Of a stretch of 64,000 nucleotides of DNA, positions 23,281 through 35,272 are shown one piece after another. The position numbers and the translations under genes are program-made. The DNA comes from Patescibacteria group bacterium (GTDB lineage: Bacteria; Patescibacteriota; Microgenomatia; UBA1400; PJMF01). The notes below the pieces were generated by a model. That model had not been told where the DNA came from and made no database searches. It worked only from the letters and a program-made list of their open reading frames with translations. How positions within the stretch are numbered: the first letter of the stretch is position 1; each line of letters starts with the position of its first letter. Location: the NCBI GenBank assembly GCA_045541795.1, contig JAZQJV010000018.1, forward strand, positions 197,134-261,133. Direction: 5' to 3'.

Positions 23281-23295
23281 GCAACTCCAGTGACC

Positions 23296-24726
23296 TTAGT
23301 CAAAAGCGTGCGTATTCACGCCCTTGGTCCAGTCAATTTCCGCGTGAGCCTTGAGGATGTCGCGGATGATCTTTTTGAGGCTGTCGTATTCTTTTTTGGT
23401 CTTGCCTTCAAATTTGATCGTAATGTACGGCCCATTTTGTGACGCGCGTACAGTCACCATTTGTGTGGGCGTATCCATGCGGATACCATCAATAGTGTCG
23501 TAGTCGGCCTTGGGGAATTGTTTTTTGAGGTCGCCGGCAATCACTTCCTTGATGAACTTAAATTTGATGTCATCAGCCAGCCCGAGCTTAATTTCTGGAC
23601 TGGTAGTGTATTTTGGCAAACTGTCTACGGCCTCGCCCAAAGTCAGATCCTTGCGCTCCAGATAAGACAGCAAACGCAATGACGCGTACGCGGCATCGTC
23701 ATGACCAAAGAAATTATCATTAAAGAAAATGTGGCCCGAAAGCTCACCGCCAAATGGCGCATTAAGTTCTTTGATCTTGGCCTTGATGAAAGAGTGACCA
23801 GTAATCCACATTACCGGTTTGCCGCCACGCTTAGTGATGGTCTGGCTTACAGCCTTGGAGCACAAATTATTAAAGACAATCGGCGCGCCAGGCATCGTGT
23901 CGAGTACATCGTCGGCAAAAAGCGCCACCACGCTATCCATCCACAGTACCCGGCCAGCTTCATCTACCACCGCCATCCGGTCACCGTCGGCGTCGTAAGC
24001 CAAACCAATATCCGCTTCATGTTTGAGCACGCCTTCACGTAGCCGCTCCAGCACTTCTACTTCTGTGGGATCCGGCACGCCTAGCGGGAAATTGCCGTCT
24101 AGCTTACAGTTTTGCTCGATCACCTCACAGCCAGCAGCGTGCAAAATTTCCGGATAGAACTTACCACTGGTAGAATTACTGGCATCAATCACCACTTTCC
24201 AGCGTTTGTGCAGGCGGAAGTTTTTGAGGATCGTGCGCAGGTAAGAGTCAAAGATGTCTACCTTGTGATTGGGCGCGGGCGTGGGCGCAGTCACGAAGTC
24301 GGCCTTAGCTGTGAGCTCCCGGAAAGCCTGTACCTCTTCTGACAGCATCGTCTCCGAGTAACCCGTGCCCAGCTTCAAGCCGTTGTATTCACGCGGATTG
24401 TGAGAAGCGGTAATCATCGCGTAGCCTTTGGTCTTAAACTCATAAGCGGCAAAATACACCATTTGTGACAAAGCTAAGCCCATATCATAAGTCTCAATAC
24501 CGCCGTCATTTAGCCCTTGGATGAAGGCTTTTTTGTAGGCTTTGGAGGTGATGCGGTTGTCATGACCCACGGCCGCATCTACGATCCGATGCATTGACAG
24601 CCAAGTAGCATAAGCCCGTCCAAAAGTATAATAGACGTCCTCATTCAAATCTACATCCATGACGCCACGGATGTCATAGCCCCGGAAAATATGGGGATTA
24701 ATGTCGGTAACAATTTTGTAAGCCAT
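23296..24726 (-). CDS. Phosphomannomutase/phosphoglucomutase (alpha-D-phosphohexomutase)
   Basis: Active-site loop TASHNPREYNGLK, Mg-binding DADGDR and sugar-binding GGELSGH motifs. Confidence 0.8.
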   Translation of the reverse strand: MAYKIVTDINPHIFRGYDIRGVMDVDLNEDVYYTFGRAYATWLSMHRIVDAAVGHDNRITSKAYKKAFIQGLNDGGIETYDMGLALSQMVYFAAYEFKTKGYAMITASHNPREYNGLKLGTGYSETMLSEEVQAFRELTAKADFVTAPTPAPNHKVDIFDSYLRTILKNFRLHKRWKVVIDASNSTSGKFYPEILHAAGCEVIEQNCKLDGNFPLGVPDPTEVEVLERLREGVLKHEADIGLAYDADGDRMAVVDEAGRVLWMDSVVALFADDVLDTMPGAPIVFNNLCSKAVSQTITKRGGKPVMWITGHSFIKAKIKELNAPFGGELSGHIFFNDNFFGHDDAAYASLRLLSYLERKDLTLGEAVDSLPKYTTSPEIKLGLADDIKFKFIKEVIAGDLKKQFPKADYDTIDGIRMDTPTQMVTVRASQNGPYITIKFEGKTKKEYDSLKKIIRDILKAHAEIDWTKGVNTHAFD

Positions 24727-24860
24727 AAAAGCCTTCCTAATTACCAATTTGACCCATTATAACATAACTTTTACTATTTTTGGTGGCAATTTGCCCGCGC
24801 GCCGGCTCGTTTTTATGGTATAATAAAAGCTCTTAGCAAAAATTAATAAAGGAACGATTT

Positions 24861-25427
24861 ATGGCAACAGTCAACGGCGGTAATCTCAAAAAAGGCATGT
24901 ACATTGATTTTCGCGGCGCGCCACATCAAGTGACCAACACTCAATTTGTCTCGCCAGGCAAAGGCTCAGCTTTTACCCGGGCGAAGCTCAAAAACATCAC
25001 CACGGGCAACACCCTAGAGTTTACCTTCAAGACCAACGAAAACGTGGAACTGCTCGATGTCCCCAGCAGAGAGCTGACTTACTCTTATCATGATGATGAC
25101 GTGGTCGCCTTCATGGATATGCGCACCTACGAGCAATTTGAGATCAAAAGAGAACTCATCGGCGATGACGTCTATTACCTCACGCCAGACGTCAAAGTCT
25201 ACGTGATGTTTTTGGGTGATGAGCCCATTGGCGTCACCCTGCCGCCCAAAGTCAAGCTCAAAGTCACCGAAGCGCCCGAGGCCATCAAAGGTGATCGGGT
25301 GACCGCTGGCAAAAAACCAGTGGTGATGGAAACAGGTCTCACTGTCCAAGCGCCCATTTTCATCAAGACCGGCGAGACTTTACTCATTGATACTACTACC
25401 GGCGAATACGTTTCTCGGGCCAACTAA
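24861..25427 (+). CDS. efp: Elongation factor P
   Basis: Full-length EF-P (188 aa) with KGMYIDFRG...PGKGSAFTRAKLKN N-domain. Confidence 0.9.
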   Translation: MATVNGGNLKKGMYIDFRGAPHQVTNTQFVSPGKGSAFTRAKLKNITTGNTLEFTFKTNENVELLDVPSRELTYSYHDDDVVAFMDMRTYEQFEIKRELIGDDVYYLTPDVKVYVMFLGDEPIGVTLPPKVKLKVTEAPEAIKGDRVTAGKKPVVMETGLTVQAPIFIKTGETLLIDTTTGEYVSRAN

Positions 25428-26065
25428 TCACGGCCTGGTGATACCTTTTCCTCTGCCTCCAGCCAACCGTGCTGCCGACACAGAGTCTTGATCTGCGCCG
25501 CCAGGTCTGCAATGTTGCCAGTATTATCAAGCACGCTTGAAATTCTTGCCGTCTGGAGGAGTTTGTCTTGTGAGTGCTCCACCCGCATCTCAGCCTTTTG
25601 CCGGTCCCAGTGATATGCCGCTTGGGCGCGCTCAATCATCTGCTCACGGCTGGCGGTAATTTGCCACAGCTCATCCACCAGCGTAGCAAAACCGGCCGCC
25701 GCCAGATGGCTGCCGAGTACAAACACCACCCGTCTGCCTCTTTTGCCTTGGGCAAAAAGCCATATTTCCAAATTTTGCCGCACACGTGGCCACATGATTT
25801 GCTCGAGCCACGCCAGATCCTCTGGATGAGTAAAAACGTACCAGGCAAGCCGCTTTTTGTCCACACTCGCGTCTGGCAAAAACACATCCAGGCCAAAACG
25901 GCTTTGTAATATGTCTTTGACTTCCGCCGTCTCATAAAGCCGAGCCACGATCTGGTCACAGTCAATGACACTCAACCCTAGCTCGGCCAAAATCCGCCCC
26001 GCGGTGGATTTACCCGCGCCCATCATCCCCGTGATCCCAATTACTTGCATAAGGCAATTATACAC
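25424..26065 (-). CDS. coaE: Dephospho-CoA kinase
   Basis: P-loop IGITGMMGAGKST. The start may be the internal ATG at 26050. Confidence 0.8.
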   Translation of the reverse strand: MYNCLMQVIGITGMMGAGKSTAGRILAELGLSVIDCDQIVARLYETAEVKDILQSRFGLDVFLPDASVDKKRLAWYVFTHPEDLAWLEQIMWPRVRQNLEIWLFAQGKRGRRVVFVLGSHLAAAGFATLVDELWQITASREQMIERAQAAYHWDRQKAEMRVEHSQDKLLQTARISSVLDNTGNIADLAAQIKTLCRQHGWLEAEEKVSPGRD

Positions 26066-26101
26066 CCCAAACGCCAGAATTTGTGGTATAATAAGCGCTA
26101 T

Positions 26102-26184
26102 GCCCTGGTGGTGGAATGGTAGACACAGCAGACTTAAAATCTGCCGACCGCAAGGTCATGCGAGTTCGAGTCTCGCCTGGGGCA
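26102..26184 (+). tRNA. tRNA-Leu (anticodon TAA), long variable arm
   Basis: Anticodon stem GCAGA/TCTGC with loop CTTAAAA. Extra arm present. T-arm GAGTTCGAGTCTC. Confidence 0.85.
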
Positions 26185-26221
26185 CGAGGTTTCACGAAAT
26201 GCAAAATTAAAATCTTTTCAT

Positions 26222-26231
26222 CCCCCCCCCC
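26222..26231 (+). repeat. Homopolymeric C10 tract 10 bp upstream of the -35 box of the DGR target-gene promoter
   Basis: ccccccccccattttgcccc TTGACA(26242-26247)-N16-TACAAT(26264-26269). Confidence 0.8.
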
Positions 26232-26404
26232 ATTTTGCCCCTTGACACGCGCGGCTATTGTGCTACAATGATTTGGCATCCGTGAGTAGTAAGTAACGTA
26301 GAAAGTAAAAAATCCAAAAAAACGCTTCCAAAAATAAAATGATGTAAACCATCTTGCTGTAGATAACCAAGCTATCTGCGCGCCTTAGAGAGTAGAAAGG
26401 CATT

Positions 26405-27769
26405 ATGTATAGCAAATTTTTGGGGCGTTTGTTCCTCACGGCTAGTTTCATCCCGCTGGCCGTGGGGCGTGCTGCCGCCGCCTCCAGCACTACCACCACG
26501 ATGAAACTGATAGACACCCCGCTGGCTGCAGTGGTGGGTACGGGGGGACGCGTCAATCTCATCCGCACGGCAGATAACACTTGGCAAGCCACGGATAACT
26601 CCAACTGCCCAGACGGCGCTGCTTATCCCAACGGCACTGCTCACTGTTTTGCCGCCAAAGGTGATTACACCGCCGCCCAGGTCTATCAGTACTCCTGCCG
26701 CAAGCACACCTGCTCAGCCGATACCGTGTGGAATCCCGCCTCAGGCACCTGTATCCCGATCGTGGATTACGGCTGTACCCACACCAATAACTTCATGACA
26801 CTGCAAGACTGGGACGGCTGTAGTGCTCTGGCCACACCGGCCGCCGGCGGCAATAATTACACCGCTGGGCCGTGCTTGATCGACAATCGCGACGGCAAGA
26901 CGTACAATGTCCGCAAATTTGCCGACGGCAAATGCTGGCTGGCCAACAACTTGAAGTTTGGCGGCGATTATCACTACTGGCACAATATCAAAGGTCAGTC
27001 AGCTGATACCTGCGCGCTGCGGCTGGGCAGTAAGTGGCAGTCTGGCGGCTTCAACAATCTCTATACCAATCAGTCTGCGGCCAAGCCGCCCACCAATCGC
27101 TTCTGGCAAGGCTCTTACGGCGACTGCGTCTATCCGTACTCATCCACCTCTAGTAGTGATGCCAGCAATAAATACGGCTATCTTTACAACTGGATGGCAG
27201 CCGTACAGTCTCCTTGCGGCTGGTATAGTCAAGAATGTGATCCTGACGCCATGGCGACCAATACCGACGGCAAAGGCACCTACGGGACGCAAAAAATCCA
27301 AGGCATTTGTCCGGAAGGCTGGCATCTGCCCACGGGCGGTACTGGTGGCGAGTTTAATATCCTCACTGACCGGGTTGCTGGTATCACTGGTGGCAGTAGT
27401 CACTTGGCCGATGAGTCCAATACTGCCGGCGGTTGTTATACCAAAGGTAATACTACCTGTGGTATTTGGTCTGATACTAGCCGCAATGGTGGTAACGGTA
27501 GTTACGTTTTAACTTTCTTCAACCCTGGAGGAGGTTTTAATACTACTTATGCCGGCCGTACCAATTACATTGGTGAGTCTGGGGCTACAGAAACTACTGC
27601 CGTCGGCCTGATCTACCAGGGGTCGAACGCGCGCTATTGGTCCTCTACTGCTAGGTCTACTACCAACGCCTACGGCTTGGACGTGTACAGCTCGGGCGTG
27701 AGACCCCTAGGCTACCATCCGGGCGACAGCAAGTACTACGGCTTTTCGGTTCGCTGCGTGCTGGATTAG
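26405..27769 (+). CDS. Secreted Fibrobacter-succinogenes-major-paralogous (FISUMP/DUF1566-like) domain protein; DGR variable (target) protein
   Basis: Signal peptide. Motifs DNRDGKTYNVRKFADGKCWLANNL, YGYLYNWMAA, CPEGWHLPT and GFSVRCV match TIGR02145-type domains. The C-terminal 58 codons form the VR. Confidence 0.8.
   Translation: MYSKFLGRLFLTASFIPLAVGRAAAASSTTTTMKLIDTPLAAVVGTGGRVNLIRTADNTWQATDNSNCPDGAAYPNGTAHCFAAKGDYTAAQVYQYSCRKHTCSADTVWNPASGTCIPIVDYGCTHTNNFMTLQDWDGCSALATPAAGGNNYTAGPCLIDNRDGKTYNVRKFADGKCWLANNLKFGGDYHYWHNIKGQSADTCALRLGSKWQSGGFNNLYTNQSAAKPPTNRFWQGSYGDCVYPYSSTSSSDASNKYGYLYNWMAAVQSPCGWYSQECDPDAMATNTDGKGTYGTQKIQGICPEGWHLPTGGTGGEFNILTDRVAGITGGSSHLADESNTAGGCYTKGNTTCGIWSDTSRNGGNGSYVLTFFNPGGGFNTTYAGRTNYIGESGATETTAVGLIYQGSNARYWSSTARSTTNAYGLDVYSSGVRPLGYHPGDSKYYGFSVRCVLD
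27588..27764 (+). repeat. DGR variable repeat (VR) at the 3-prime end of the target gene
   Basis: About 175 bp matching TR (30483-30655). It differs at 18 positions, every one an adenine in TR. Confidence 0.9.
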
Positions 27770-27781
27770 GTTTCCGGTTTG

Positions 27782-27866
27782 GGGCGCGGCTGTGGACCCA
27801 CGACCGGCGGAGCTTATGCGCAGCCGAGGCGGCAGCTTGCTGCCAGCCACAGTGGGGACCGGCCGC
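27782..27866 (+). promoter_or_regulatory. GC-rich inverted-repeat/hairpin structure immediately 3-prime of VR (DGR homing-associated structure)
   Basis: ggcgcggctgtgg...ccacagtgggg...gccgcgcc imperfect long stem plus inner perfect hairpin GGCAGCTTGCTGCC. Confidence 0.6.
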
Positions 27867-27959
27867 GCCGGCCACCAAAAAAGTAGCTTGAGCAATAAAA
27901 ATTAATTAGAAAAAATTATAAATTATAAAGTAAATCAAACATCAAAAAAAAGGAATATT

Positions 27960-28946
27960 ATGACGACAAACTCCAAAAAAGCACCCATCAAAAATCAGGC
28001 CGCGCCGGCCAGCAACTCTGGCGTCGCCAAAAAAATCACCAGTGCGGGCGGCGAGCAAAGTGATCTTTTTGCCGGCATGGCTCTGCCGGAGGCGGCCAAA
28101 AAAGCCGAAGCTCGGGTCTTCAAGGTGGGCCTGAGTGCCAAAGAAAAAAAGACCGCCGCCAAAATCAAGGAAATCCGCAACCGCGACCACAAAATCGGCC
28201 TGATTGACGAGTGGATCGAGGCCGAAGACGCCAATTTTGACACGATCATCCTTCACAAAGAGTACGATATGTTTGTGGCTTTCAACCAAAGCGCTTATCA
28301 GCTGCGCGTCAAACTCCATCCTGGCCTCAAGCTCTACTTACAGCTCAACAAATACCGCCCCGAAGCCTTACGGGTGGCCTTGGGCAAAAATCAGCTGATA
28401 GACATCCGCCTGGCGGCCGAGGAAGCGGGCTTACAGATGCAAGAGTTCAAGGATGACAACCAAGAAGTGCAGACTATCATCATCTCCGGCCTCGCCACCA
28501 TCACCAGTGAAGAATTTAATAACTGGAAAGCCTCATACATTGCCAATATCGAAAAAGCCCAAGCTACCATCAAACCATTTTACGGCGACCTCAATATTTA
28601 CAAAAGTCTCATGGATCTATCCGTGATGGAAATGCACGCCGTGGGTAATTTCCCGCGTCACATCCGTGAGGTGATCGGCCCACAATTACTCTCACTAGTC
28701 ACGGCGGCCATCGCTCTCATCCGTGATGCCACCCTCAAAAAAGAAGACGAGCTGCCGCTGCCGCGCAAAATCGCTGTGGTGATGGAGCTGGAGAAAAATA
28801 TTGATCAGCAGGGATTTTTGCTACAGACATCTCTCAATCTCCAGGTGCTCAATACCGATAGCTTTGCCCGGCTCGCCAGTGTCATGGGTGAGCTCATCCA
28901 TCAGCTCACAGCCTGGAAATTATCCCTCAAAAAGAAACGGGCATAA
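27960..28946 (+). CDS. DGR accessory protein (328 aa; basic N-terminus, helical C-terminal region possibly Avd-like)
   Basis: Sits between VR and RT in the position usually occupied by avd, but is about 2.5 times longer than a canonical Avd. No recognisable enzymatic motif. Confidence 0.5.
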   Translation: MTTNSKKAPIKNQAAPASNSGVAKKITSAGGEQSDLFAGMALPEAAKKAEARVFKVGLSAKEKKTAAKIKEIRNRDHKIGLIDEWIEAEDANFDTIILHKEYDMFVAFNQSAYQLRVKLHPGLKLYLQLNKYRPEALRVALGKNQLIDIRLAAEEAGLQMQEFKDDNQEVQTIIISGLATITSEEFNNWKASYIANIEKAQATIKPFYGDLNIYKSLMDLSVMEMHAVGNFPRHIREVIGPQLLSLVTAAIALIRDATLKKEDELPLPRKIAVVMELEKNIDQQGFLLQTSLNLQVLNTDSFARLASVMGELIHQLTAWKLSLKKKRA

Positions 28947-28973
28947 GTAAAAAACACCGGTATATAGGCAAAA

Positions 28974-30227
28974 TTGAATGGTATCATGATCGTCGATCAA
29001 GGTGAAGTCTGGTTTGAAAGCCGCCGTCAGCAATATGTAGACAGTAATGACTGGCAGCTTTATGAGCGCCTCCTGACAGCTTATTTTGACGCCCGTCGCC
29101 ACAAACGCTCTACCAATAATCAGCTGGCATTTGAAATTGATTTGCTTCATCACGTCCAAGAACTATACGACGCCATCCATGATCGTCACTATACCCTCGA
29201 GCCTGGCATTGCTTTTGTGGTAGACGACCCCAAGCCACGCGAGATTTTGGCCGCCTCTTTCCGCGATCGGGTCGTCCATCATTTTGTCTGCAGTCTCATG
29301 ACACCGTACTGGGAGCCGCGTTTTATCGCCGACTCATATTCTTGCCGGGTGGGCAAAGGTACGCACTACGCGATCGCCCGGGCCCACAAGCACGCCCAGC
29401 GCCTCACGCACAATTACCGCGATGAAGCCTGGGTACTCAAACTCGATCTCAAGTGTTATTTTATGTACATTGACAAAGCCGTCTTGTGGGAGCTGATCCA
29501 GCCGATGTTTACGGCTGATGAGGATGCGCTCGCGGCCGGGCGCATCAGTGAGGAAGAGGCCCGCTATCATCTGGTACGCGGTTTTAATGACTATTTTGCG
29601 GCTGTTTTGGAATATTTGTTGCGGATCATTATTTTTTCCTGCCCGATGCTGAGCGTCCAGCTGCGGGGCAGACTTGATCGCTGGACGCTCCTTCCTGCCG
29701 AAAAAACCCTATTTATCGCGCCTTTTTGGCGCGGTTTTCCAATTGGTAATCTCACCAGTCAGCTGTTTTCCAATATTTATCTGCATGCTTTGGACTGTTT
29801 TATCAAATATCGGCTAGGCTTTACTCACTACGGCCGCTACGTAGACGATTTATACATGATGGATACGGATAAAACCCGCCTTAAGCGCGCCCGCACGGCT
29901 ATCGGTAAGTTTTTGGCCGACACACTTCATTTGCGCCTTCATCCTACCAAGGTGATTTTACAGCCCGTCAAGTACGGCTTTCCTTTTGTTGGTGGGGTAG
30001 TGCGTCCGCACTCCTGCGTGCCTACTCGCCGTTTCCAAAAACGCTACCAAAAATTTATGACCGGCCACTCTGCCCGGCATTACACCGAGTATCAGCGCTC
30101 CCGCATCGCTAGTTACCAAGGTCATGATACCAAGATCCGCCATCTGCCCGAGCCCAAGCGCACGCTCACACAAAAAAGGCTCAAAAGACTAGCCGACCAG
30201 CAGCAAGCGTGTATTTATCACCGCTAA
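28974..30227 (+). CDS. Diversity-generating retroelement reverse transcriptase
   Basis: RT motifs FRDRVVHH (1/2), SYSCRVGKGTHYA (3), LDLKCYFMYI (A), DGR-specific IGNLTSQLFSNIYL (motif 4, 29742-29762) and YVDD (29838-29849). Confidence 0.85.
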   Translation: MNGIMIVDQGEVWFESRRQQYVDSNDWQLYERLLTAYFDARRHKRSTNNQLAFEIDLLHHVQELYDAIHDRHYTLEPGIAFVVDDPKPREILAASFRDRVVHHFVCSLMTPYWEPRFIADSYSCRVGKGTHYAIARAHKHAQRLTHNYRDEAWVLKLDLKCYFMYIDKAVLWELIQPMFTADEDALAAGRISEEEARYHLVRGFNDYFAAVLEYLLRIIIFSCPMLSVQLRGRLDRWTLLPAEKTLFIAPFWRGFPIGNLTSQLFSNIYLHALDCFIKYRLGFTHYGRYVDDLYMMDTDKTRLKRARTAIGKFLADTLHLRLHPTKVILQPVKYGFPFVGGVVRPHSCVPTRRFQKRYQKFMTGHSARHYTEYQRSRIASYQGHDTKIRHLPEPKRTLTQKRLKRLADQQQACIYHR

Positions 30228-30482
30228 AAAGGGCTTTTTTAGTGTAAAATTAAATGGACGAAAGTCGCTCTTTGATAGCTGACGCCGTGCCCGCCCGCGT
30301 AAAATCAACTCTCGGGTGGAAGAAATCCAGCACAAAAGACCAGCCTGCTGCCGGCTTGCCGAGCGTGATAGGTATTTTGGTACCGGGGCCGCCAGGCCCG
30401 AGGGGTAATCACAAGTGGTCTGCAGTTATTTTTTTCACGTATACTGCACCAGCTGACCGTCCGCCGGTACGGTGATGACGGC

Positions 30483-30655
30483 AAAAAACTGCCGTCGGCC
30501 TGATCAACCAGGGGTCGAACGCGAACTATTGGTCCTCTACTGCTAGGTCTACTACCAACGCCTACAACTTGAACGTGAACAGCTCGAACGTGAAACCCCT
30601 AGGCAACAATCCGGGCAACAACAAGTACTACGGCTTTTCGGTTCGCTGCAATGCT
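30483..30655 (+). repeat. DGR template repeat (TR)
   Basis: Non-coding copy of VR lying 255 bp downstream of the RT gene. Rich in AAC codons in the VR frame (aac x10, aat x2, aaa x1 at variable sites). Confidence 0.9.
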
Positions 30656-30698
30656 GTCATCAGCTCACGGCGTCAGCCAAGGAGTCAGAAATTGACCC

Positions 30699-30728
30699 TT
30701 GACAACACCCCAGCCACGATCTATAATG
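30699..30728 (+). promoter_or_regulatory. Strong sigma70-like promoter (TTGACA-N18-TATAAT) with no downstream protein-coding gene
   Basis: attgacccTTGACAacaccccagccacgatcTATAATg. The next 490 bp on the + strand contain only short, low-complexity ORFs. Confidence 0.55.
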
Positions 30729-31216
30729 AACGCACATCTAAATCGTAGCAAAGAGGATTTTGAAGTTCGGTGTAGATTCAATCTCCTACTGCTAATTAGA
30801 AATCGAGCTTACGTAGATTTCTTCTTACCGTACGTAAGGTTCTGTAACAGCGTGTGGAGTCCAACGTCAAGCGCTTGGATGCGACCTGGTATCGGTTTCA
30901 TGTCTTCAGTCTTTCTCTTTCTTGTCTGAGGTTTCTTGCTGCCGGTAGTGGTGGGGTTGAATTGCGGATGCATTTGGGAAGCGAACTCACACCCGCTCGC
31001 ACACGCTCGCGCGGGCAGCACGCCGTTTGCAGGATAATTGCAGAAGAAATTAATTTTCCAGGCGTCATGCATATTTTCCGGGGGAAGAGACGAGCAAACT
31101 GCCGTTGGTGACCAAAAGGAGTTTTCATCCGAACTTTTAGACCTTTTAAATCACGATCATGACGTTATCGCTCGTGAGTATTATACCATGAAAAAGTTGC
31201 TTGATGAGATTAAAAA

Positions 31217-32350
31217 TCAAGGTAGGTCTAGGTGAGCAATAATTTCCTCCTCACTTGGCAAAACATTTTGTAGGCTGTAGGTCGAAATGCCGACTGGTTG
31301 CCCACTTTTCTCGACTGTCCACTGGGCAACGACACTGTTTTTCTCTTTACAGATTAAAAGTCCGATAGTCTGCTTGTCCTGAGGAGTTTTGATCAGATGA
31401 TCGACGGCATTACAATAGAAATTTAATTTGCTGACAAATTCCGGTTGGAATTTTACTACTTTGAGTTCCACCACGATAAAACGTCGCAGTTTATAGTGAT
31501 AAAACAGTAGATCAGGGGCATACTCGTCGCCATTTACAACTAGCGGTACTTGCCTGCCCACATAAGCAAAGCCCGTGCCGAGTGTGAGTAAAAATTGCGT
31601 AAGATTGTTTTCAATTGCCTGCTGTAGGTCTTTTTCTTGATAATTTCTTCTCAAAGTCAGAAAATCTAATTTGTAATTATCTCGCAGAATTTCCCGAGCC
31701 AAATCACCCTCTGTCTTGGGTAGTGTAAGGGAGAAATTGTTGATTGTCTTGCCTCTTGTCTGGTAAAGTTTGGTATCAAGCATATTAAGCAGTGTTGCTC
31801 GACTCCAGTTGTTTTCTCTTACCTGAGCAATAAAAAACAATGCCTCATTCAGTGATTTGACTTTGGTAAAAATTTCGATGTGATGCCGCCATGGGATAGT
31901 AAAGATAATGTCTAAATGTTCATCTTTCCAATGGTCAATAGACGCTGTCTGCGATTCTGCATCAGGCTGGTGCAAAATTAAACCCATGGTAGATTCGTCA
32001 CCGAGTTGGTGACGACTTGGCAAACCCTTGAACTCTGCACCAAGTTGGTGCAGAATTGGGCTGTAGAACTCGTAAAACCGTTTCATATAGCGGATATTTC
32101 TTGCAGAGAAACCTTGTGCATCAGGAAATTCCACTTTAAGATCACGACTTAAATTATCGTAAAAACGACTGCCGTATTTGTTGTCAAACTGCTTAGTAGT
32201 AATATCTCTCCCTATCCGCCAGTAAAGTCGCAGCATCTGTTCATTAACAGCAATACTGGCTTTGATTTGAGTGTGAGCAATGTCCTTCTTGAGCGTTGAT
32301 AACCAGTGAACGTATTCTTGATTTTTGCTCGCCAATAATTCACTAGACAT
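31217..32350 (-). CDS. YhcG-like PDDEXK-fold nuclease (DUF1016 family)
   Basis: N-terminal DUF1016 region and C-terminal PD-(D/E)xK-like core (APDLLFYHYKLRRFIVVELKVVKFQPEFVSKLNFY). Confidence 0.65.
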   Translation of the reverse strand: MSSELLASKNQEYVHWLSTLKKDIAHTQIKASIAVNEQMLRLYWRIGRDITTKQFDNKYGSRFYDNLSRDLKVEFPDAQGFSARNIRYMKRFYEFYSPILHQLGAEFKGLPSRHQLGDESTMGLILHQPDAESQTASIDHWKDEHLDIIFTIPWRHHIEIFTKVKSLNEALFFIAQVRENNWSRATLLNMLDTKLYQTRGKTINNFSLTLPKTEGDLAREILRDNYKLDFLTLRRNYQEKDLQQAIENNLTQFLLTLGTGFAYVGRQVPLVVNGDEYAPDLLFYHYKLRRFIVVELKVVKFQPEFVSKLNFYCNAVDHLIKTPQDKQTIGLLICKEKNSVVAQWTVEKSGQPVGISTYSLQNVLPSEEEIIAHLDLP

Positions 32351-32456
32351 ATCAGACTTTCTTTTTTATACTTATAATTTACCATAAATAGTGCAAAATG
32401 TCAAATTTTCGTGCAACCTCAGTATATTTCGGAATAAAAATTCCTATCAAACAAAG

Positions 32457-33551
32457 CTATCTAAACTGACCGTTACAATAGTGATCTATTAAAATTCTTC
32501 TGTCAATTGAATCAGTCACTTCGTTATCAATAAATTGTGCACAACTAATGTCTGTTGATTCATGCAATAAAAACTCTGTAAATATCTTGAGAACAGTTTT
32601 TATTTCGCCTGTTTGATTATTTACTGTAAAACTCACACTATAACAATGTCCCATGCAGATATCACTAAAGGGGTTAATTGATGCATCAAATCTCTCAATG
32701 TGATTAGCGTGATCTTCGTCCGTGCTGATATCAGTGATACTTCTAATATGAATGTTTGATAAAGGATAGCTATATTCTTGTTTATCGAAATATTCATCAA
32801 CCGTACCATTAGTTTTTTGCGTGGCGGCGATCAATGAATTTCTTTGTTTTTCTTCAACTTCTTCAAACTCGTCCAGCATGCCCAATTCCCTTAAAGCTAC
32901 AGCATTTGCGTCAAATATTTGCATGTCTGAGTAATAGTATGTCAAAGAATATACTTTGCCGTCATATATGTATAATGCCAATCTATCTCCTTCTTCTATT
33001 CCACCAAAAGGATTACTTAATTGTCTGGTTTGATCTTCGATAAATCCTAACAACAATAGAGCTTTTTTGGCTTGTTCATAATAGAGTTCCATATTATCTT
33101 GATTAACTTCAATTATCCAATAGGCCAAATCGTGATCAGAACCAAAAGAATGTCTAAATTGTGGGCCACTCATAGTTAAAACAGGTTCTAGCGATTTTAA
33201 CCTCCACCAAGTATCGATGCCAACGCCATGCCAGCCTTTGGATTGGCCATATTCCCATCCATCATATAAAAGAAGATATTTTGAAATCTTTTGATTCAGT
33301 TGTGAAGAGCTTTGATTTGCACCCTCTAAATCATCATTTTTTTCTTTCAAATTAGTCAATTCATTTTCGCCAATATTGTCTAATTCCAAATCATGGTCGG
33401 ATGTCTCTTGTAAAGAATTTTTGTCTGACTTTTCTATGGTGAAATTTAAGTACATAGCTATCACAGTCAATATACATAACACTGCTAAAACAAATATAAC
33501 TATCCTTTTGTAAAAAGGCTCTATTGCAGTAGCTTTGTTATTATTTGGCAT
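32457..33551 (-). CDS. Hypothetical membrane-anchored acidic protein (364 aa) in AT-rich DNA
   Basis: Single N-terminal TM then an acidic soluble domain. Local GC is clearly lower than the surroundings. Same strand as yhcG, 106 bp upstream of it. Confidence 0.45.
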   Translation of the reverse strand: MPNNNKATAIEPFYKRIVIFVLAVLCILTVIAMYLNFTIEKSDKNSLQETSDHDLELDNIGENELTNLKEKNDDLEGANQSSSQLNQKISKYLLLYDGWEYGQSKGWHGVGIDTWWRLKSLEPVLTMSGPQFRHSFGSDHDLAYWIIEVNQDNMELYYEQAKKALLLLGFIEDQTRQLSNPFGGIEEGDRLALYIYDGKVYSLTYYYSDMQIFDANAVALRELGMLDEFEEVEEKQRNSLIAATQKTNGTVDEYFDKQEYSYPLSNIHIRSITDISTDEDHANHIERFDASINPFSDICMGHCYSVSFTVNNQTGEIKTVLKIFTEFLLHESTDISCAQFIDNEVTDSIDRRILIDHYCNGQFR

Positions 33552-33628
33552 ATCTGCATTATTACATCACGTTTATATTTCTTATTAATCAAGATTATTC
33601 ACGATTGCGACGAGAAAGACCCTTTTTG

Positions 33629-33702
33629 TGACCCCAAAGGGATTCGAACCCTTGATTTTTTGGATGAGAACCAAATGTCCTGGACCGCTAGACGATGGGG
33701 CC
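33629..33702 (-). tRNA. tRNA-Glu (anticodon CTC)
   Basis: Acceptor GGCCCCA/TGGGGTC. Anticodon stem TTTGG/CCAAA with loop TTCTCAT. T-arm GGGTTCGAATCCC. Confidence 0.8.
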
Positions 33703-33726
33703 ATTTTTTAAAGATGAGCTATTATA

Positions 33727-34821
33727 TCACGGAAAAAGCCCTCGTGCGCGAGCAATTTCCCACATGTGCGCATAAAAGTAGACATTATGGATCGCCGCCA
33801 GCCGTGCACAGCTGGTATCCTTGATCTTATATAAATGATGCAGGTATGCTCGTGAGTAGCGCTGACAGGTGTGACAGCCACAACCCGGATCTAGTGGGCG
33901 CTCATCGTGCGCGTATTTCGTCTTACCAAGGTCAAAAAGCTCATATATCTGGCCTGGCTTACTGCTCGAGACATAAAGCCGCCCGTGCCGGGCATCACGT
34001 GTGGGGAGCACACAGTCAAAAATCTGATAACCGGCTTTTGTCAGGGCGATAATTTCATCAGGTTTGCCAAAACCCATCGCGTAGCGAGGTAGCTCATCTG
34101 GCGTCAATCGGGCATTAGCGGCCGCCCATTCCAAATCTAGTCCGCCGCCAGGCAAAAACTTTGCCCCGCCCAGACAGTAACCATCAAAACCAATTGCCAC
34201 AAGTTCCTGGGCACACCACGCCCGTGCCTCCCAGTTGTCATGACCCTGGATCACCGCAAAAAGCAGTGGCCGCTCGGCCTCATCCAGCCGCCAGTAATGC
34301 AGCTGTCGCTCAAATTCCTGCTTGCAGCGTCTCGCCCAAGACACTGTCCGGCGCACACTTTCGCTCACACGCGCTGGGCTCGCCTCTGGTGGCGTATAAT
34401 CATCCAGACAAATTACGATGTCACTGCCCAGCGCAAACTGCATTGCCACCGAGTCCTCCGGCCGGAAAAGGAGCTTGGTTTGCTTTTTGGGCCCGGTGTA
34501 AGTCACCAGTCCCTTATCAGTAATTTTACCAAAGCCTGGGATTTTTTGGAAAAGTGAGTGTACCTGGAAACCGCCCGAATCACTAATCACCAAGCCGTCA
34601 TAGTTCATCAGTCGCTTCACCCCACCATGATCCACCATCCCGTCACGACCAGGAAAATCATGCAAGTGCCAAGTATTGACGATCAACCCTCGCACGCCGG
34701 TCGCATCCAGATCATCGCTGTCTAGACCCTTTACCACACCGCGCGTCGCGTCCGGGCAAAAAAGCGGCAAATTGTACTGCCGGCCCTTAATCACCAGTGA
34801 TTTTGGGGTGGTATCGCTCAT
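33727..34821 (-). CDS. tgt: Queuine tRNA-ribosyltransferase (tRNA-guanine transglycosylase)
   Basis: DSGGFQV substrate motif and zinc site CGCHTCQRYSRAYLHHL. Internal ATG at 34821 taken as start. Confidence 0.85.
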   Translation of the reverse strand: MSDTTPKSLVIKGRQYNLPLFCPDATRGVVKGLDSDDLDATGVRGLIVNTWHLHDFPGRDGMVDHGGVKRLMNYDGLVISDSGGFQVHSLFQKIPGFGKITDKGLVTYTGPKKQTKLLFRPEDSVAMQFALGSDIVICLDDYTPPEASPARVSESVRRTVSWARRCKQEFERQLHYWRLDEAERPLLFAVIQGHDNWEARAWCAQELVAIGFDGYCLGGAKFLPGGGLDLEWAAANARLTPDELPRYAMGFGKPDEIIALTKAGYQIFDCVLPTRDARHGRLYVSSSKPGQIYELFDLGKTKYAHDERPLDPGCGCHTCQRYSRAYLHHLYKIKDTSCARLAAIHNVYFYAHMWEIARARGLFP

Positions 34822-34828
34822 ACCTTCC

Positions 34829-35272
34829 TCAGCCGCAAAGCGGTATCCCGCGCGCATCCGCACGATACCCGGGGGCAGCAGACAGGATCAGCACCCCCTC
34901 GATAAATGCCCAAATTCCCACCGCAAAACTAGCAAGGAACAAGGTAAAAGGTCCGACGATCACGGCCAAAACTAGTTGGCAAATCGCCCGGGCATGATAG
35001 CCTAGATAAAAGTTATGCAAACCTAGACAGCCAAATAAAATCGCCAGGATACCAGCGACCGCCCGAGAGCGACGATCAGGCCGGTCATCGGCGACATAAT
35101 CCACGCATCCCGGATTGTCTACGTGATGAGAACTGCTTTTTACCTGACCGCTATAAGCCTTGCCGCCAGCCAAAAGCGCACCGCATGAGGGGCAATAATT
35201 ATCGTTTAAGCGTACTACCCGTCCACAACGATCACATTTTCGCTCTGGTAAGGTTGGATTTTTCTTGCCCAT
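34829..35272 (-). CDS. Zinc-ribbon plus TM2-domain membrane protein
   Basis: N-terminal CxxC...CxxC ribbon and TM2 signature GILAILFGCLGLHNFYLG. Confidence 0.6.
   Translation of the reverse strand: MGKKNPTLPERKCDRCGRVVRLNDNYCPSCGALLAGGKAYSGQVKSSSHHVDNPGCVDYVADDRPDRRSRAVAGILAILFGCLGLHNFYLGYHARAICQLVLAVIVGPFTLFLASFAVGIWAFIEGVLILSAAPGYRADARGIPLCG

What the first reader, a model, noticed from the sequence alone, without database searches (positions are those of the whole stretch)
26185..33628. Roughly 7.4-kb accessory island between tRNA-Leu and tRNA-Glu carrying DGR, PDDEXK nuclease and AT-rich cargo
Everything between tRNA-Leu(TAA) (ends 26184) and the 3-prime end of tRNA-Glu(CTC) (33629, minus strand) is non-housekeeping. 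It holds the DGR cassette, a promoter-driven non-coding stretch, a YhcG-like DUF1016 PDDEXK nuclease and a 364-aa membrane-anchored acidic protein in distinctly AT-rich DNA (32.4-33.6 kb). Both tRNA 3-prime ends face the region, which is the classic integration geometry. No integrase remains inside, suggesting an old, fixed island.
Basis: partly seen in the sequence, partly recalled or inferred. Interest (0 to 1): 0.55.

Follow-up and report, generated by a model that had tools for sequence, protein, structure and literature searches.

The report
Composite inter-tRNA region, not one island
The stretch between the two tRNA genes is not one old island: it holds a resident, still-active diversity-generating retroelement plus a separate 2.5-kb AT-rich gene cassette that was recently inserted exactly at the end of the tRNA-Glu gene and is shared almost identically with a different bacterial species.

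Summary
In detail: the tRNAs, DGR, YhcG nuclease, 364-aa protein and AT-rich DNA are all there. The single "old, fixed 7.4-kb island" reading is not.

**DGR half (26.2-31.09 kb).** Composition matches the host (GC 0.52, GC3 0.58-0.64). It is 96-97% conserved in conspecific metagenome contigs (L022, L023). It is active: the two strains' VRs differ at 14 of 109 positions, all at TR adenines.

**AT-rich half (31108-33627; GC 0.37).** This is a discrete 2.5-kb cassette without an integrase.
- It is absent from L022, where the DGR side abuts tRNA-Glu directly.
- It sits at the same tRNA-Glu 3' end in another species (L002) at 99.56% identity, while the adjacent TGT protein is only 70% identical.
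- In both hosts it is bounded by GTGACC, the tRNA's last six bases.
- Cargo: a YhcG/DUF1016 PD-(D/E)XK nuclease (PADLOC candidate PDC-S02) and a membrane-anchored near-ORFan.

**tRNA-Leu flank.** This is a second hotspot. L023 carries a 1.7-kb AT-rich PDC-S01 cassette there, and the window has the empty site.

**Context and mechanism.** The organism is a ruminant-gut Patescibacterium. Insertion by a recombinase supplied in trans is inferred, not shown.

This is a new member of a known kind (tRNA-adjacent hotspot cassettes) and of moderate interest.

The parts
26102..26185 (+). tRNA-Leu(TAA); its 3' end faces the interval
   Evidence: ARAGORN; Rfam tRNA, 55 bits. The EF-P-CoaE-tRNA-Leu(taa) order is conserved in L023, L024 and L025.
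26193..26204 (.). Unoccupied insertion site CACGAAATGCAA, 8 nt after tRNA-Leu. The sister strain L023 carries a 1741-bp AT-rich PDC-S01 cassette here, flanked by an 11/12 direct repeat of this sequence.
   Evidence: The two L023 alignment segments overlap on window 26193-26204. Junction sequences and insert GC of 0.389 against 0.509. PDC-S01 match, 1e-108.
26405..27769 (+). DGR target gene: 454-aa FISUMP/Fib_succ_major protein with an N-terminal hydrophobic segment
   Evidence: Pfam PF09603, 2e-12. TIGR02145, 4e-21. GC3 0.62, like the host.
27591..27757 (+). Variable repeat (VR) at the 3' end of the target gene
   Evidence: 167-nt repeat, 90% identical to the TR. 16 of 16 mismatches fall on TR adenines, at codon positions 1 and 2. 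The L023 strain's VR differs at 14 of 109 positions, all at TR adenines.
27778..27880 (+). GC-rich extended stem-loop just downstream of the VR; possibly the DGR target hairpin or a terminator
   Evidence: DNA fold -34.2 kcal/mol, z = -2.09; 3 of 200 shuffles fold as well. Weak evidence.
27960..28946 (+). DGR accessory gene: 328 aa, with an Avd-like C-terminal domain (residues 209-326) and an N-terminal extension of about 200 aa
   Evidence: PHROG 3206 'Avd protein of DGR', E = 1.1e-4. No Pfam, NCBIfam or PADLOC hit. Conserved in L022.
28974..30227 (+). DGR reverse transcriptase; the likely true start is the ATG at 28986, giving 413 aa
   Evidence: RVT_1, 7.5e-11. IGNLTSQ and YVDD motifs. 98% identical homolog P0129 on L022; the next-best homolog is only 50% identical.
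30483..30649 (+). Template repeat (TR), downstream of the RT
   Evidence: The TR differs from the L022 TR at a single non-A position.
30650..31086 (+). Conserved non-coding stretch with a perfect sigma-70 consensus promoter at 30699-30727. It belongs to the host/DGR side, not to the inserted cassette.
   Evidence: 98% identical to L022, with two 1-nt indels that would frameshift every small ORF there. Promoter matches 12 of 12. No Rfam hit, no fold signal, no meaningful Pfam hit.
31087..31107 (.). 21-nt junction filler (GAGACGAGCAAACTGCCGTTG), shared with neither the empty-site strain (which has 24 other nt) nor L002. Unexplained.
   Evidence: Junction comparison and alignment A2.
31108..33627 (-). 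2.52-kb AT-rich cassette without an integrase, inserted at the 3' end of tRNA-Glu. The left end starts with GTGACC (31108-31113), which repeats the tRNA's terminal GTGACC (33628-33633).
   Evidence: Absent from conspecific L022. 7 mismatches in 1587 nt against L002, whose homology ends at 31105. GC 0.367. No terminal inverted repeats. No phage or plasmid DNA match apart from one weak 177-nt plasmid hit under a PDDEXK nuclease gene.
31217..32350 (-). yhcG-like gene: 377 aa, DUF1016_N plus a YhcG_C PD-(D/E)XK nuclease domain. Matches the PADLOC candidate defence gene PDC-S02. It has its own promoter-like site at 32404-32376.
   Evidence: Pfam 1e-51 and 2e-35. PDC-S02, 6e-129. phrog_22762, 6e-78. 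PD...ELK motif intact. Promoter-like site. Truncated in L002 by an 887-bp deletion corresponding to window 31133-32019.
32457..33551 (-). Gene for a 364-aa acidic near-ORFan anchored in the membrane by an N-terminal helix (GC 0.336, GC3 0.285)
   Evidence: 362 of 364 residues identical in L002. One 90%-identity cluster in 5.8 billion proteins. Only 2 further representatives among 1.84 billion. One full-length homolog at 40% identity. AlphaFold is confident only for the N-terminal helix.
33628..33702 (-). tRNA-Glu(CTC); the cassette abuts its 3' terminus. Its promoter (TGATATAAT...ATCTTTAA) lies at about 33703-33760.
   Evidence: The tRNA is identical (75 of 75) in L002 and L017, and the promoter is conserved in all relatives. 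Sequences diverge immediately after GGGGTCAC.

Best explanation
The interval is a composite inter-tRNA region in a ruminant-gut Patescibacteria (CPR) chromosome.

**Part A (26.2-31.09 kb): a resident DGR.** It consists of a FISUMP-domain target with VR, an Avd-like accessory gene, the RT and the TR, followed by a conserved non-coding stretch. It has host-like composition, sits at the same place in conspecific strains, and is still mutagenising its VR.

**Part B (31108-33627): a mobile cassette.**
- It is 2.5 kb, AT-rich and has no integrase.
- It entered this strain recently, exactly at the 3' terminus of tRNA-Glu(CTC).
- The same cassette occupies the same site in a different species.
- It carries two independently promoted genes: a YhcG/DUF1016 PD-(D/E)XK nuclease (PADLOC candidate anti-phage gene PDC-S02) and a membrane-anchored acidic near-ORFan.

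**Hotspots.** Both tRNA 3' flanks are insertion hotspots for such mini-cassettes. The sister strain has the tRNA-Glu site empty and the tRNA-Leu site filled with a 1.7-kb PDC-S01 cassette.

**Shown:** the composite nature, the insertion polymorphism, the boundaries to within about 20 nt, the inter-species near-identity and DGR activity.

**Inferred:**
- Insertion occurs by site-specific recombination within the tRNA's terminal GGTCAC, by a recombinase supplied in trans (as for a cis-mobilizable element).
- The cargo acts in phage defence.
For: **Split of the interval**
- GC is 0.519 for 26186-30700 and 0.367 for 31217-33627, against 0.50 for the window.
- GC3 is 0.58-0.64 for DGR genes and 0.56-0.61 for housekeeping genes, against 0.41 and 0.285 for the cassette genes.

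**Empty site**
- L022 1-2845 matches window 28201-31086 at 96.6%.
- L022 2870-4509 matches window 33628-35267 at 96.0%.
- Only 24 nt lie between these segments, and tRNA-Glu is at L022 2868-2944.

**Inter-species sharing**
- Window 32020-33759 is 98.5% identical to L002, while flanking genes are 63-74% identical in DNA and TGT is 70% identical in protein.
- The cassette core differs at 7 of 1587 nt.
- L002 has an internal 887-bp deletion. Homology then continues for 28 nt and stops at 31105.

**Boundaries**
- In both hosts the far end reads ...TTTTGGTCAC followed by unrelated host DNA. The near end is the tRNA's ...TTTGGGGTCAC.

**Timing**
- Cassette divergence of 0.44% is well below the 3.4-4% between the strains. 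The transfer is therefore younger than the strain split, so this is a gain in the window strain rather than a loss in L022.

**Hotspot behaviour**
- TM2-(DUF2752)-TGT followed by tRNA-Glu is conserved in several relatives (L002, L017, L019-L021), but the DNA after the tRNA differs in each lineage. L020 has a tyrosine integrase there.
- L023 has a 1741-bp PDC-S01 cassette with an 11/12 direct repeat, 8 nt after tRNA-Leu.

**DGR**
- 16 of 16 TR/VR mismatches are at adenines.
- Inter-strain VR differences: 14 of 14 at TR adenines, against 1 difference in the 51 nt upstream.
- RT motifs IGNLTSQ and YVDD are present. The accessory protein gives an Avd hit.

**Cargo**
- PDC-S02 match, 6e-129.
- PDC-S01 and PDC-S02 are among the most abundant candidate systems in rumen MAGs (PMC13356809).

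**Lineage**
- TGT homologs named by their sources are Patescibacteria, Pacebacteria, WWE3 and Woesebacteria.
Against: - Only two occupied sites and one empty site are known, and all come from metagenome assemblies. Read-level support for the window's junctions cannot be checked.
- The direct repeat is only 6 nt. A longer tRNA-like resemblance at the far end is not significant window-wide (Smith-Waterman score 15, against background scores up to 28).
- The 21 nt outside the left GTGACC differ from the 24 nt at the empty site. A simple conservative insertion into an L022-like site therefore does not fully explain the junction.
- No cognate integrase, circular junction or donor has been found.
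- The defence function of PDC-S02 is a guilt-by-association prediction. [quoted passage not shown]
- L022 and L023 are separate contigs from one sample and need not be one strain.
Confidence: 0.75

Rival explanations
1. One reading: the whole 7.4 kb between tRNA-Leu and tRNA-Glu is a single, old, fixed genomic island that has lost its integrase.
For: - All genes in the interval are non-housekeeping.
- Both tRNA 3' ends face the interval.
- The DGR is not found at either tRNA locus in the two other species examined (L002/L025 and L017/L024).
Against: - Composition is bimodal, and the DGR half matches the host.
- The AT-rich half alone is polymorphic between strains and is nearly identical across species, so it is recent and not fixed.
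- No tRNA-derived repeat bounds the 7.4-kb unit.
- In L023 a different cassette lies between tRNA-Leu and the DGR, which shows independent small insertions rather than one block.
Confidence: 0.04
2. The 2.5-kb cassette is the decayed stump of a larger integrase-bearing element (prophage, ICE or IME) integrated in tRNA-Glu. It was trimmed down before it spread, or spread by other means.
For: - tRNA 3' ends are classical att sites. 18 E. coli defence hotspots lie in tRNA loci (PMC10121019).
- A relative (L020) has a tyrosine integrase about 2 kb downstream of the same tRNA-Glu.
- YhcG/DUF1016 genes piggy-back on ICEs and RAGEs (PMC4316617) and match a phage protein family (phrog_22762).
Against: - Both hosts have the same two ends to the nucleotide. 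The 2.5-kb unit itself, not a larger element, is therefore what was last transferred.
- No pseudogene remnants of integrase or phage genes lie inside or beside it.
- No similarity to known phages or plasmids, apart from one weak 177-nt plasmid hit under a PDDEXK nuclease gene.
Confidence: 0.15
3. The cassette arrived by natural transformation and homology-facilitated illegitimate recombination. The identical tRNA-Glu gene and promoter (about 100 nt) served as the single homologous anchor, and the far end was joined illegitimately at a microhomology (GTGACC).
For: - tRNA-Glu is identical (75 of 75) and its promoter is conserved between the species, which provides an anchor.
- Five mismatches cluster in the first 22 nt after the tRNA.
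- Non-homologous 21/24-nt filler at the far junction looks like the scar of an illegitimate join.
- No recombinase is in the cassette.
Against: - Two independent illegitimate joins, in the window lineage and the L002 lineage, would have to end at the same cassette nucleotide.
- The second cassette, at tRNA-Leu in L023, has a 12-nt flanking direct repeat and lies outside the tRNA. That fits site-specific or duplicative insertion better.
Confidence: 0.12
4. The cassettes are selfish and move by means of a nuclease. Their own PD-(D/E)XK protein (YhcG, or AAA_14-DUF4143 in L023) cuts the empty site next to a tRNA gene, and the gene is copied in by repair, as in homing.
For: - The two unrelated cassettes share only these features: a PD-(D/E)XK-type protein, no integrase, low GC, and insertion within about 0-20 nt of a tRNA 3' end. 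PDC-S01 is described as an ATPase fused to a PD-(D/E)XK domain (PMC12988326).
Against: - Homing needs flanking homology on both sides, which the two host species lack at the far side.
- No nuclease activity or specificity is known for either family.
- The L002 lineage keeps the cassette although its yhcG is truncated.
- The 364-aa gene has no role in this model.
Confidence: 0.08
5. Assembly artefact: the cassette was wrongly joined into the window contig, or into L002, through the shared tRNA-Glu.
For: - All sequences are metagenome assemblies.
- Several L002-type contigs break inside the 364-aa gene, as expected when a near-identical segment is shared by co-occurring genomes.
Against: - The cassette is flanked on both sides by DNA that is collinear with L022 at 96-97%, so two precise chimeric joins would be required.
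- Six assemblies/records of the L002 lineage (L011-L016) show the cassette joined to that lineage's own downstream genes.
- Both window flanks are equally distant from L002.
Confidence: 0.03

Closest known systems
tRNA-adjacent integration hotspots and defence islets of bacterial pan-genomes (E. coli: Hochhauser et al. 2023, PMC10121019; P. aeruginosa core defence hotspots: PMC10250203)
   Same: - Content is variable between strains and sits immediately 3' of conserved tRNA genes between conserved core genes.
- The cargo is defence or candidate-defence genes (PDC-S01, PDC-S02).
- Some islands show no identifiable means of mobilisation.
- Different occupants sit at the same spot in different lineages.
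   Different: - The host is a CPR/Patescibacteria genome.
- The occupants are tiny cassettes of 1.7-2.5 kb with one or two genes.
- One occupant is shared at 99.56% identity between species with about 70% identity in a housekeeping protein.
Cis-mobilizable elements (CIMEs): islands that have lost their integration and transfer genes but keep attL and attR (definition in ICEberg 2.0, PMC6323972)
   Same: - No integrase, relaxase or transfer genes.
- Bounded by a short direct repeat at a tRNA 3' end.
- Identical ends in two hosts imply mobilisation as a defined unit.
   Different: - No cognate ICE or IME with a matching att site or integrase has been identified.
- The repeat is only 6 nt, or a weak 17 of 27.
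- CIMEs are described mainly in Firmicutes with ICESt3-type partners, and no conjugation machinery is linked here.
Classical tRNA-integrated genomic islands and prophages (Williams 2002, NAR 30:866, cited in PMC10121019; from general knowledge)
   Same: - Insertion at the extreme 3' end of a tRNA gene that leaves the tRNA intact.
- Atypical base composition.
- Presence or absence varies between strains.
   Different: - No integrase.
- No long (15-50 nt or more) repeat of the tRNA 3' end.
- Size is 2.5 kb rather than 10-100 kb.
Diversity-generating retroelements of CPR bacteria (Bordetella phage BPP-1 prototype; widespread in CPR according to Paul et al. 2017, from my own knowledge)
   Same: - Adenine-specific TR-to-VR differences.
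- RT with IGxxxSQ and YVDD motifs.
- VR at the C-terminus of a target protein.
- Avd-like accessory protein.
   Different: - Gene order is target-accessory-RT-TR, with the TR downstream of the RT.
- The accessory protein is 328 aa, with an N-terminal extension of about 200 aa before the Avd-like domain.
- The target is a FISUMP (Fib_succ_major) protein.
YhcG/DUF1016 PD-(D/E)XK family (Kosinski et al. 2005, PMC1189080), equal to the PADLOC candidate PDC-S02
   Same: - Two-domain architecture: an N-terminal helical domain of about 200 aa plus a C-terminal PD-(D/E)XK domain with an ELK motif.
- Occurs as lone, horizontally moving cargo (PMC4316617).
   Different: Nothing atypical in the protein itself. 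Only its context is new: a two-gene cassette, paired with a membrane-anchored near-ORFan.

Membership tests
Diversity-generating retroelement (DGR) | TR/VR pair whose differences are confined to TR adenines | tested here: met
   16 of 16 mismatches over 167 nt fall on TR adenines; 31 of 47 adenines are unchanged.
Diversity-generating retroelement (DGR) | Reverse transcriptase of the DGR type (IGxxxSQ motif plus YxDD) | tested here: met
   IGNLTSQ at residue 257 and YVDD at residue 289. RVT_1 domain. The assignment of this motif to DGR RTs is from my own knowledge.
Diversity-generating retroelement (DGR) | VR lies at the 3' end of a target ORF | tested here: met
   VR 27591-27757 lies within ORF 26405-27769.
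Diversity-generating retroelement (DGR) | Accessory protein (Avd or equivalent) | tested here: met
   Residues 209-326 of the 328-aa protein match PHROG 3206 'Avd protein of DGR', E = 1.1e-4. The match is weak, and no structure test was done.
Diversity-generating retroelement (DGR) | Evidence of ongoing mutagenic homing | tested here: met
   The window and L023 VRs differ at 14 of 109 positions, all at TR adenines, against 1 of 51 upstream. The TR differs between strains at one non-A base.
Diversity-generating retroelement (DGR) | IMH element and hairpin downstream of the VR | tested here: inconclusive
   A GC-rich stem-loop at 27778-27880 gives z = -2.09. The IMH was not defined.
Classical tRNA-integrated genomic island (applied to the whole 7.4 kb) | Direct repeat of the tRNA 3' part at the distal end | tested here: not met
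   No copy of either tRNA's 3' end with 3 or fewer mismatches in 24-26 nt. The best partial matches are 11 nt or shorter.
Classical tRNA-integrated genomic island (applied to the whole 7.4 kb) | Integrase gene inside | tested here: not met
   No integrase or recombinase domain in any ORF of 26186-33627, including the small ORFs.
Classical tRNA-integrated genomic island (applied to the whole 7.4 kb) | Atypical composition over the whole unit, and presence or absence as one unit | tested here: not met
   Only 31.1-33.6 kb is atypical, and only that part is missing from L022.
tRNA-adjacent hotspot cassette / cis-mobilizable element (applied to 31108-33627) | Presence/absence polymorphism with a clean empty site in a close relative | tested here: met
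   L022 lacks window 31087-33627 and is otherwise 96-97% identical.
tRNA-adjacent hotspot cassette / cis-mobilizable element (applied to 31108-33627) | Same element with the same ends at the same target in an independent host | tested here: met
   L002: 0.44% divergence, with ends at tRNA-Glu GGGGTCAC and at ...TTTTGGTCAC.
tRNA-adjacent hotspot cassette / cis-mobilizable element (applied to 31108-33627) | attL and attR direct repeats | tested here: inconclusive
   - A 6-nt GTGACC lies at both ends in both hosts.
- My estimate of the chance of that hexamer falling within 3 nt of the boundary is about 0.002.
- The extended similarity is 17 of 27 and weak.
- The tRNA-like resemblance is not significant window-wide.
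tRNA-adjacent hotspot cassette / cis-mobilizable element (applied to 31108-33627) | Lacks its own integration and transfer genes | tested here: met
   There are two genes only, YhcG and a near-ORFan.
tRNA-adjacent hotspot cassette / cis-mobilizable element (applied to 31108-33627) | Cognate helper element or recombinase acting on the same att site | not testable with these tools
   - The only recombinase in the window is a Xer-like gene at 15905-16777.
- A tyrosine integrase lies near tRNA-Glu in relative L020.
- No functional link can be shown for either.
IS element or transposon (applied to 31108-33627) | Terminal inverted repeats and a transposase | tested here: not met
   Terminal-inverted-repeat alignment score of 14 equals the shuffle mean of 14.3. 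No transposase domain.
PADLOC PDC-S02 (candidate single-gene defence; YhcG/DUF1016) | Full-length match to the family HMM and an intact PD-(D/E)XK motif | tested here: met
   PDLC04810, 6.3e-129, covering residues 8-367. PD...ELK motif present.
PADLOC PDC-S02 (candidate single-gene defence; YhcG/DUF1016) | Demonstrated anti-phage activity | not testable with these tools

The most novel reading that the evidence does not exclude
The two cassettes could represent an unrecognised class of miniature mobile elements. They are the YhcG/PDC-S02 cassette at tRNA-Glu and the AAA_14-DUF4143/PDC-S01 cassette at tRNA-Leu.

In this reading, each element targets the DNA just past a tRNA gene. Its own PD-(D/E)XK nuclease drives or triggers the insertion, with no integrase involved.

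That would mean some of the most abundant 'candidate defence genes' in rumen and archaeal genomes are primarily selfish, self-spreading nuclease genes.
Probability: 0.08. Interest if true: 0.75.

Novelty: new member of a known kind. Interest (0 to 1): 0.4.

Why it matters
The finding gives a nucleotide-resolved example of very recent gene exchange between two species of Patescibacteria (CPR) in the ruminant gut. These organisms have tiny genomes, and their mobile elements are poorly known.

It also shows three further things:
- tRNA 3' flanks in these genomes act as interchangeable slots for one- or two-gene candidate-defence cassettes (PDC-S01, PDC-S02) without any resident integrase.
- A chromosomal DGR beside these slots is a stable, active part of the species rather than island cargo.
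- The empty and occupied site pairs define substrates that could be used to test how such integrase-less cassettes move.

For the scan, it corrects an over-merged "island" call into two mechanistically unrelated features.

Tried and rejected
- **att remnant for the 7.4-kb unit.** Ungapped searches allowing up to 3 mismatches, plus blastn-short with both tRNAs, found nothing above chance. A gapped Smith-Waterman scan for the tRNA-Glu 3' end gave score 15 at the cassette end, against a background up to 28. It is not significant on its own.
- **Phage or plasmid origin.** No phage DNA match, and only one weak 177-nt plasmid hit under a PDDEXK nuclease gene. No relatives of either cassette protein in IMG/VR. 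No exact match to the cassette end in IMG/VR.
- **More cassette copies.** The JGI metagenome scan with the 364-aa protein found none. Exact-protein look-ups for the window's own 364-aa and YhcG proteins found nothing on record.
- **tRNA-Leu side through CoaE.** The metagenome scan found nothing. This was solved instead through EF-P cluster members.
- **Function of the 364-aa protein.**
  - No meaningful hit in Pfam, NCBIfam, PADLOC or PHROGs; only a sub-threshold SpoIIIAH hit.
  - The exhaustive HMMER search gave only two fragmentary representatives.
  - The single-sequence AlphaFold model had pLDDT 40, so no fold search was run.
- **Non-coding stretch 30650-31086 as a structured RNA.** No Rfam hit. 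Fold z-scores were 0.27 and -0.75. No coding signal.
- **Transposon model.** No terminal inverted repeats.
- **tRNA-end repeats downstream of tRNA-Glu in relatives.** None within the sequence held.
- **Vertical inheritance of the cassette.** Rejected because cassette identity is 99.56% while the flanks are 63-74% identical.
- **Upstream similarity as part of the transferred block.** The tRNA promoter similarity at 33703-33759 was considered and rejected, because that promoter is conserved in all relatives.

Full report
**1. Checking the observation**

ARAGORN and Rfam place tRNA-Leu(taa) at 26102-26185 (+) and tRNA-Glu(ctc) at 33628-33702 (-). Both 3' ends point into the interval.

The interval holds five substantial ORFs:
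- a 454-aa FISUMP/Fib_succ_major protein (26405-27769)
- a 328-aa protein with no Pfam hit (27960-28946)
- a 417-aa reverse transcriptase (28974-30227)
- a 377-aa DUF1016_N + YhcG_C PD-(D/E)XK protein (31217-32350, minus strand)
- a 364-aa protein (32457-33551, minus strand) with an N-terminal hydrophobic helix and a strong acidic bias

A 167-nt repeat links 27591-27757 (VR) to 30483-30649 (TR).

The flanks are housekeeping genes. PGM, EF-P and CoaE lie on the left. TGT and a TM2/zinc-ribbon protein lie on the right.

The low-GC DNA is real and unique within the window. Region 31217-33627 has GC 0.367 against 0.50 overall, and the minimum of all 1-kb windows falls here. No integrase domain occurs anywhere in the interval. 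The description is therefore confirmed, except that the AT-rich segment starts near 31.1 kb, not 32.4 kb.

**2. One island or two things?**

Composition splits the interval. The DGR part (26186-30700) has GC 0.519. Its genes have GC3 of 0.58-0.64, indistinguishable from EF-P, CoaE, PGM and TGT at 0.56-0.61. In contrast, yhcG has GC3 0.41 and the 364-aa gene 0.285.

No partial copy of either tRNA's 3' end exists that could bound a 7.4-kb element.

**3. Relatives**

*Lineage.* A genome-collection scan with TGT found only two moderately close genomes, at 70% protein identity. A search of 5.8 billion proteins found nothing closer than 73%, apart from the source genome itself. The named hits are Patescibacteria, Pacebacteria, WWE3 and Woesebacteria, so the organism is a CPR bacterium.

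*L002.* This is the goat-jejunum MAG RGIG2556 (JAFRKQ010000010.1). In it, TGT is followed by tRNA-Glu(ctc) and then by a 364-aa ORF that is 362/364 identical to the window's.
- At DNA level, window 32020-33759 is 98.5% identical to L002, while every other shared gene is 63-74% identical.
- The base-by-base alignment shows an identical tRNA, five mismatches in the first 22 nt after it, and then 7 mismatches in 1587 nt, or 0.44%.
- L002 breaks off inside yhcG because of an 887-bp deletion corresponding to window 31133-32019.
- Homology then resumes for 28 nt (window 31132 down to 31105) and ends.
- Five further assemblies (L011, L013-L016), besides L012, which is the L002 record itself, carry this truncated form joined to its own downstream genes.

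*Promoter.* The upstream similarity at 33703-33759 is not part of the transferred block. It is the tRNA promoter (TGATATAAT...ATCTTTAA), which is conserved in all relatives. The sequences diverge immediately after the tRNA's terminal GGGGTCAC.

**4. The empty site**

A search with the RT returned a 98%-identical protein on a 4.5-kb JGI contig, L022 (sample 3300011008).
- L022 1-2845 aligns to window 28201-31086 at 96.6%.
- L022 2870-4509 aligns to window 33628-35267 at 96.0%.
- tRNA-Glu lies at L022 2868-2944.

This conspecific strain therefore has the Avd-like gene, RT, TR and non-coding stretch running straight into tRNA-Glu and TGT. It lacks window 31087-33627.

Junctions on the window + strand:
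- Empty site: ...CCGGGGGAA | 24 nt | GTGACCCCAAAGG (tRNA)
- Occupied site, left: ...CCGGGGGAA | 21 nt | GTGACCAAAAGGAG...cassette
- Occupied site, right: cassette...GACCCTTTTT | GTGACCCCAAAGG (tRNA)
- L002 far junction: ...TTTAGATTTT | GTGACCAAAAGGAG

In both hosts the cassette is therefore bracketed by GTGACC, the reverse complement of the tRNA's last six bases. Host-specific DNA begins directly outside it.

Cassette divergence between the species (0.44%) is far below the divergence between the two conspecific strains (3.4-4%). The transfer is therefore younger than the strain split. The polymorphism is a gain in the window strain, not a loss in L022.

The cassette's GC (0.37) is below that of both hosts (0.50 and 0.45), which points to a third-party origin. 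That origin was not found.

**5. Hotspots**

*tRNA-Glu flank.* The order TM2-(DUF2752)-TGT-tRNA-Glu is conserved in L002, L017, L019, L020 and L021. What follows the tRNA differs in each lineage:
- a TrxB-like gene in L017
- a 582-aa or 549-aa unknown protein, followed by ORF6N in L019/L021 or a tyrosine integrase in L020

L019 and L020 belong to one species and diverge 1.7 kb past the tRNA.

*tRNA-Leu flank.* Members of the EF-P protein cluster led to L023, a 24-kb contig from the same JGI sample.
- L023 is 97.1% identical to window 14877-26204 and 96.2% identical to 26193-27705.
- It carries 1741 extra bp between these two segments.
- The insert has GC 0.389 against 0.509 for the rest of the contig. 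It starts 8 nt after tRNA-Leu and is flanked by CACGAAAAGCAA / CACGAAATGCAA.
- It encodes one protein with AAA_14 + DUF4143 domains, which matches PADLOC PDC-S01 at 1e-108.
- The window has the empty form of this site.

In the other species, tRNA-Leu(taa) is followed by tRNA-Arg and MscS (L025), or by unknown genes, a serine recombinase and an MmeI-type restriction-modification enzyme (L024). Neither has a DGR there.

**6. The DGR is resident and active**

- All 16 TR/VR differences are at TR adenines and fall on codon positions 1 and 2.
- The RT has the IGNLTSQ and YVDD motifs.
- The C-terminus of the 328-aa protein matches the PHROG Avd family at E = 1e-4.
- A GC-rich stem-loop follows the VR, z = -2.1.
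- The TRs of the two strains differ at one non-A base.
- Their VRs differ at 14 of 109 positions, all at TR adenines, against one difference in the 51 nt upstream.

This is direct evidence of mutagenic homing since the strains diverged.

The nearest RT outside the species is only 50% identical. The DGR may well have been acquired horizontally at some point, but it carries no island signature now.

**7. The cargo**

*YhcG.* It matches PADLOC candidate PDC-S02 at 6e-129 and phage family phrog_22762. Its PD...ELK motif is intact.
- The family is a predicted nuclease of unknown role (PMC1189080).
- It is known to piggy-back on mobile elements (PMC4316617).
- PDC-S01 and PDC-S02 are among the most abundant candidate systems in rumen MAGs (PMC13356809).

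*The 364-aa protein.* It is a real but nearly orphan protein.
- It forms one cluster in 5.8 billion proteins.
- It has two fragmentary representatives among 1.84 billion.
- It has one full-length homolog at 40% identity over 286 residues.
- No family library recognises it, and the single-sequence structure model is unusable.

**8. Mechanism**

*Shown:* precise insertion at the tRNA terminus, identical ends in two hosts, a 6-nt flanking repeat, no recombinase in the cassette and no terminal inverted repeats.

*Inferred:* site-specific recombination within GGTCAC by a recombinase supplied in trans. This makes the cassette behave like a cis-mobilizable element (definition in PMC6323972) sitting in a hotspot of the kind described for E. 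coli and Pseudomonas (PMC10121019, PMC10250203).

*Candidate helper enzymes* are only circumstantial:
- a Xer-like recombinase at window 15905-16777
- a tyrosine integrase near tRNA-Glu in L020

*Unexplained:* the 21 nt just outside the left GTGACC match neither L022's 24 nt nor L002. They resemble the cassette's other end at 17 of 27 positions. They also contain AAACTGCCGTTGG, a 12/13 match to the 5' edge of the TR. Neither resemblance is significant after multiple testing.

*Rivals:* a decayed larger element, anchor-mediated illegitimate recombination, nuclease-driven homing and an assembly artefact. Each is listed with its own tests.

**9. Verdict**

The feature is a composite:
- a known kind of DGR, resident and active
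- a new member of the known class of tRNA-adjacent hotspot cassettes

It is notable for its small size, its lack of an integrase, its inter-species near-identity in CPR bacteria, and the reciprocal occupancy of two tRNA slots by PDC-S01 and PDC-S02 cassettes. Interest is moderate, at 0.4.

Noticed in passing
window 1543-1583, 15295-15314, 35335-35405, 39830-39848, 43205-43222, 46435-46450, 47424-47442, 56350-56368, 60543-60560; also intergenic spots of L001, L002 and L025: A dispersed exact 16-19-mer, TTT(T)GTCAAGAGGCAAT(TT), recurs at these positions. In at least one full copy (35335-35405) its reverse complement reads AAATTGCCTCTTGACA followed 17 nt later by TATAAT. This looks like an extended -35 promoter consensus conserved across these Patescibacteria species. 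The tRNA-Glu promoter has a related GAAATTGCT...TGATATAAT.
   Followed up: partly
window 30650-31086: This non-coding stretch between the TR and the cassette is 98% identical in L022, which is more conserved than the flanking genes. It has two 1-nt indels that rule out coding, and a perfect TTGACA-17-TATAAT at 30699-30727. There is no Rfam hit and no thermodynamic fold signal. Its function is unknown; it could be an unstructured RNA or a DGR-associated spacer.
   Followed up: partly
L023 11345-13085 (sister strain); empty site at window 26193-26204: A 1741-bp AT-rich single-gene cassette sits 8 nt after tRNA-Leu. It encodes an AAA_14+DUF4143 protein (PADLOC PDC-S01) and is flanked by an 11/12 direct repeat, CACGAAA(A/T)GCAA. 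A poly-C tract follows both repeat copies.
   Followed up: yes
window 27960-28946: The DGR accessory protein is 328 aa. Only its C-terminal 120 residues or so resemble Avd. The N-terminal 200 residues or so, which are lysine- and alanine-rich at the start, have no detectable homology.
   Followed up: partly
window 31087-31107: The 21-nt junction filler contains AAACTGCCGTTGG, a 12/13 match to the 5' boundary of the TR (AAACTGCCGTCGG at 30486-30498). With GTGACC included, it is also 17/27 similar to the cassette's tRNA-proximal end. Neither similarity is significant after multiple testing, and its origin is unexplained.
   Followed up: partly
L002 13135/13136 (corresponding to window 31133-32019): The other host species carries the cassette with a clean 887-bp deletion that removes the nuclease domain of yhcG. 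The 364-aa gene stays intact (2 amino-acid changes). This form is seen in six assemblies/records. Several of their contigs break inside the 364-aa gene, as expected if co-occurring genomes share the segment.
   Followed up: yes
L024 4098-13136 and L020 8717-11504: In related species the same two tRNA flanks carry other variable content:
- After tRNA-Leu(taa): unknown genes, tRNA-His, a large serine recombinase, DUF6338 and an MmeI-type restriction-modification enzyme.
- After tRNA-Glu(ctc): a 549-aa unknown protein and a tyrosine integrase.

   Followed up: partly
L019 1-745: A relative encodes another Fib_succ_major (FISUMP) protein next to its ATP synthase operon. FISUMP proteins, which are possible DGR targets, may therefore be common in this family.
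   Followed up: no
window 36-1385 versus L002 15120-16469: Synteny between the species is rearranged.
- In L002 the fused Mur ligase gene lies about 2 kb from the cassette. In the window it lies 30 kb away.
- The EF-P-CoaE-tRNA-Leu block and the tRNA-Glu-TGT block are tens of kb apart in L002. In the window only the DGR separates them.

   Followed up: partly
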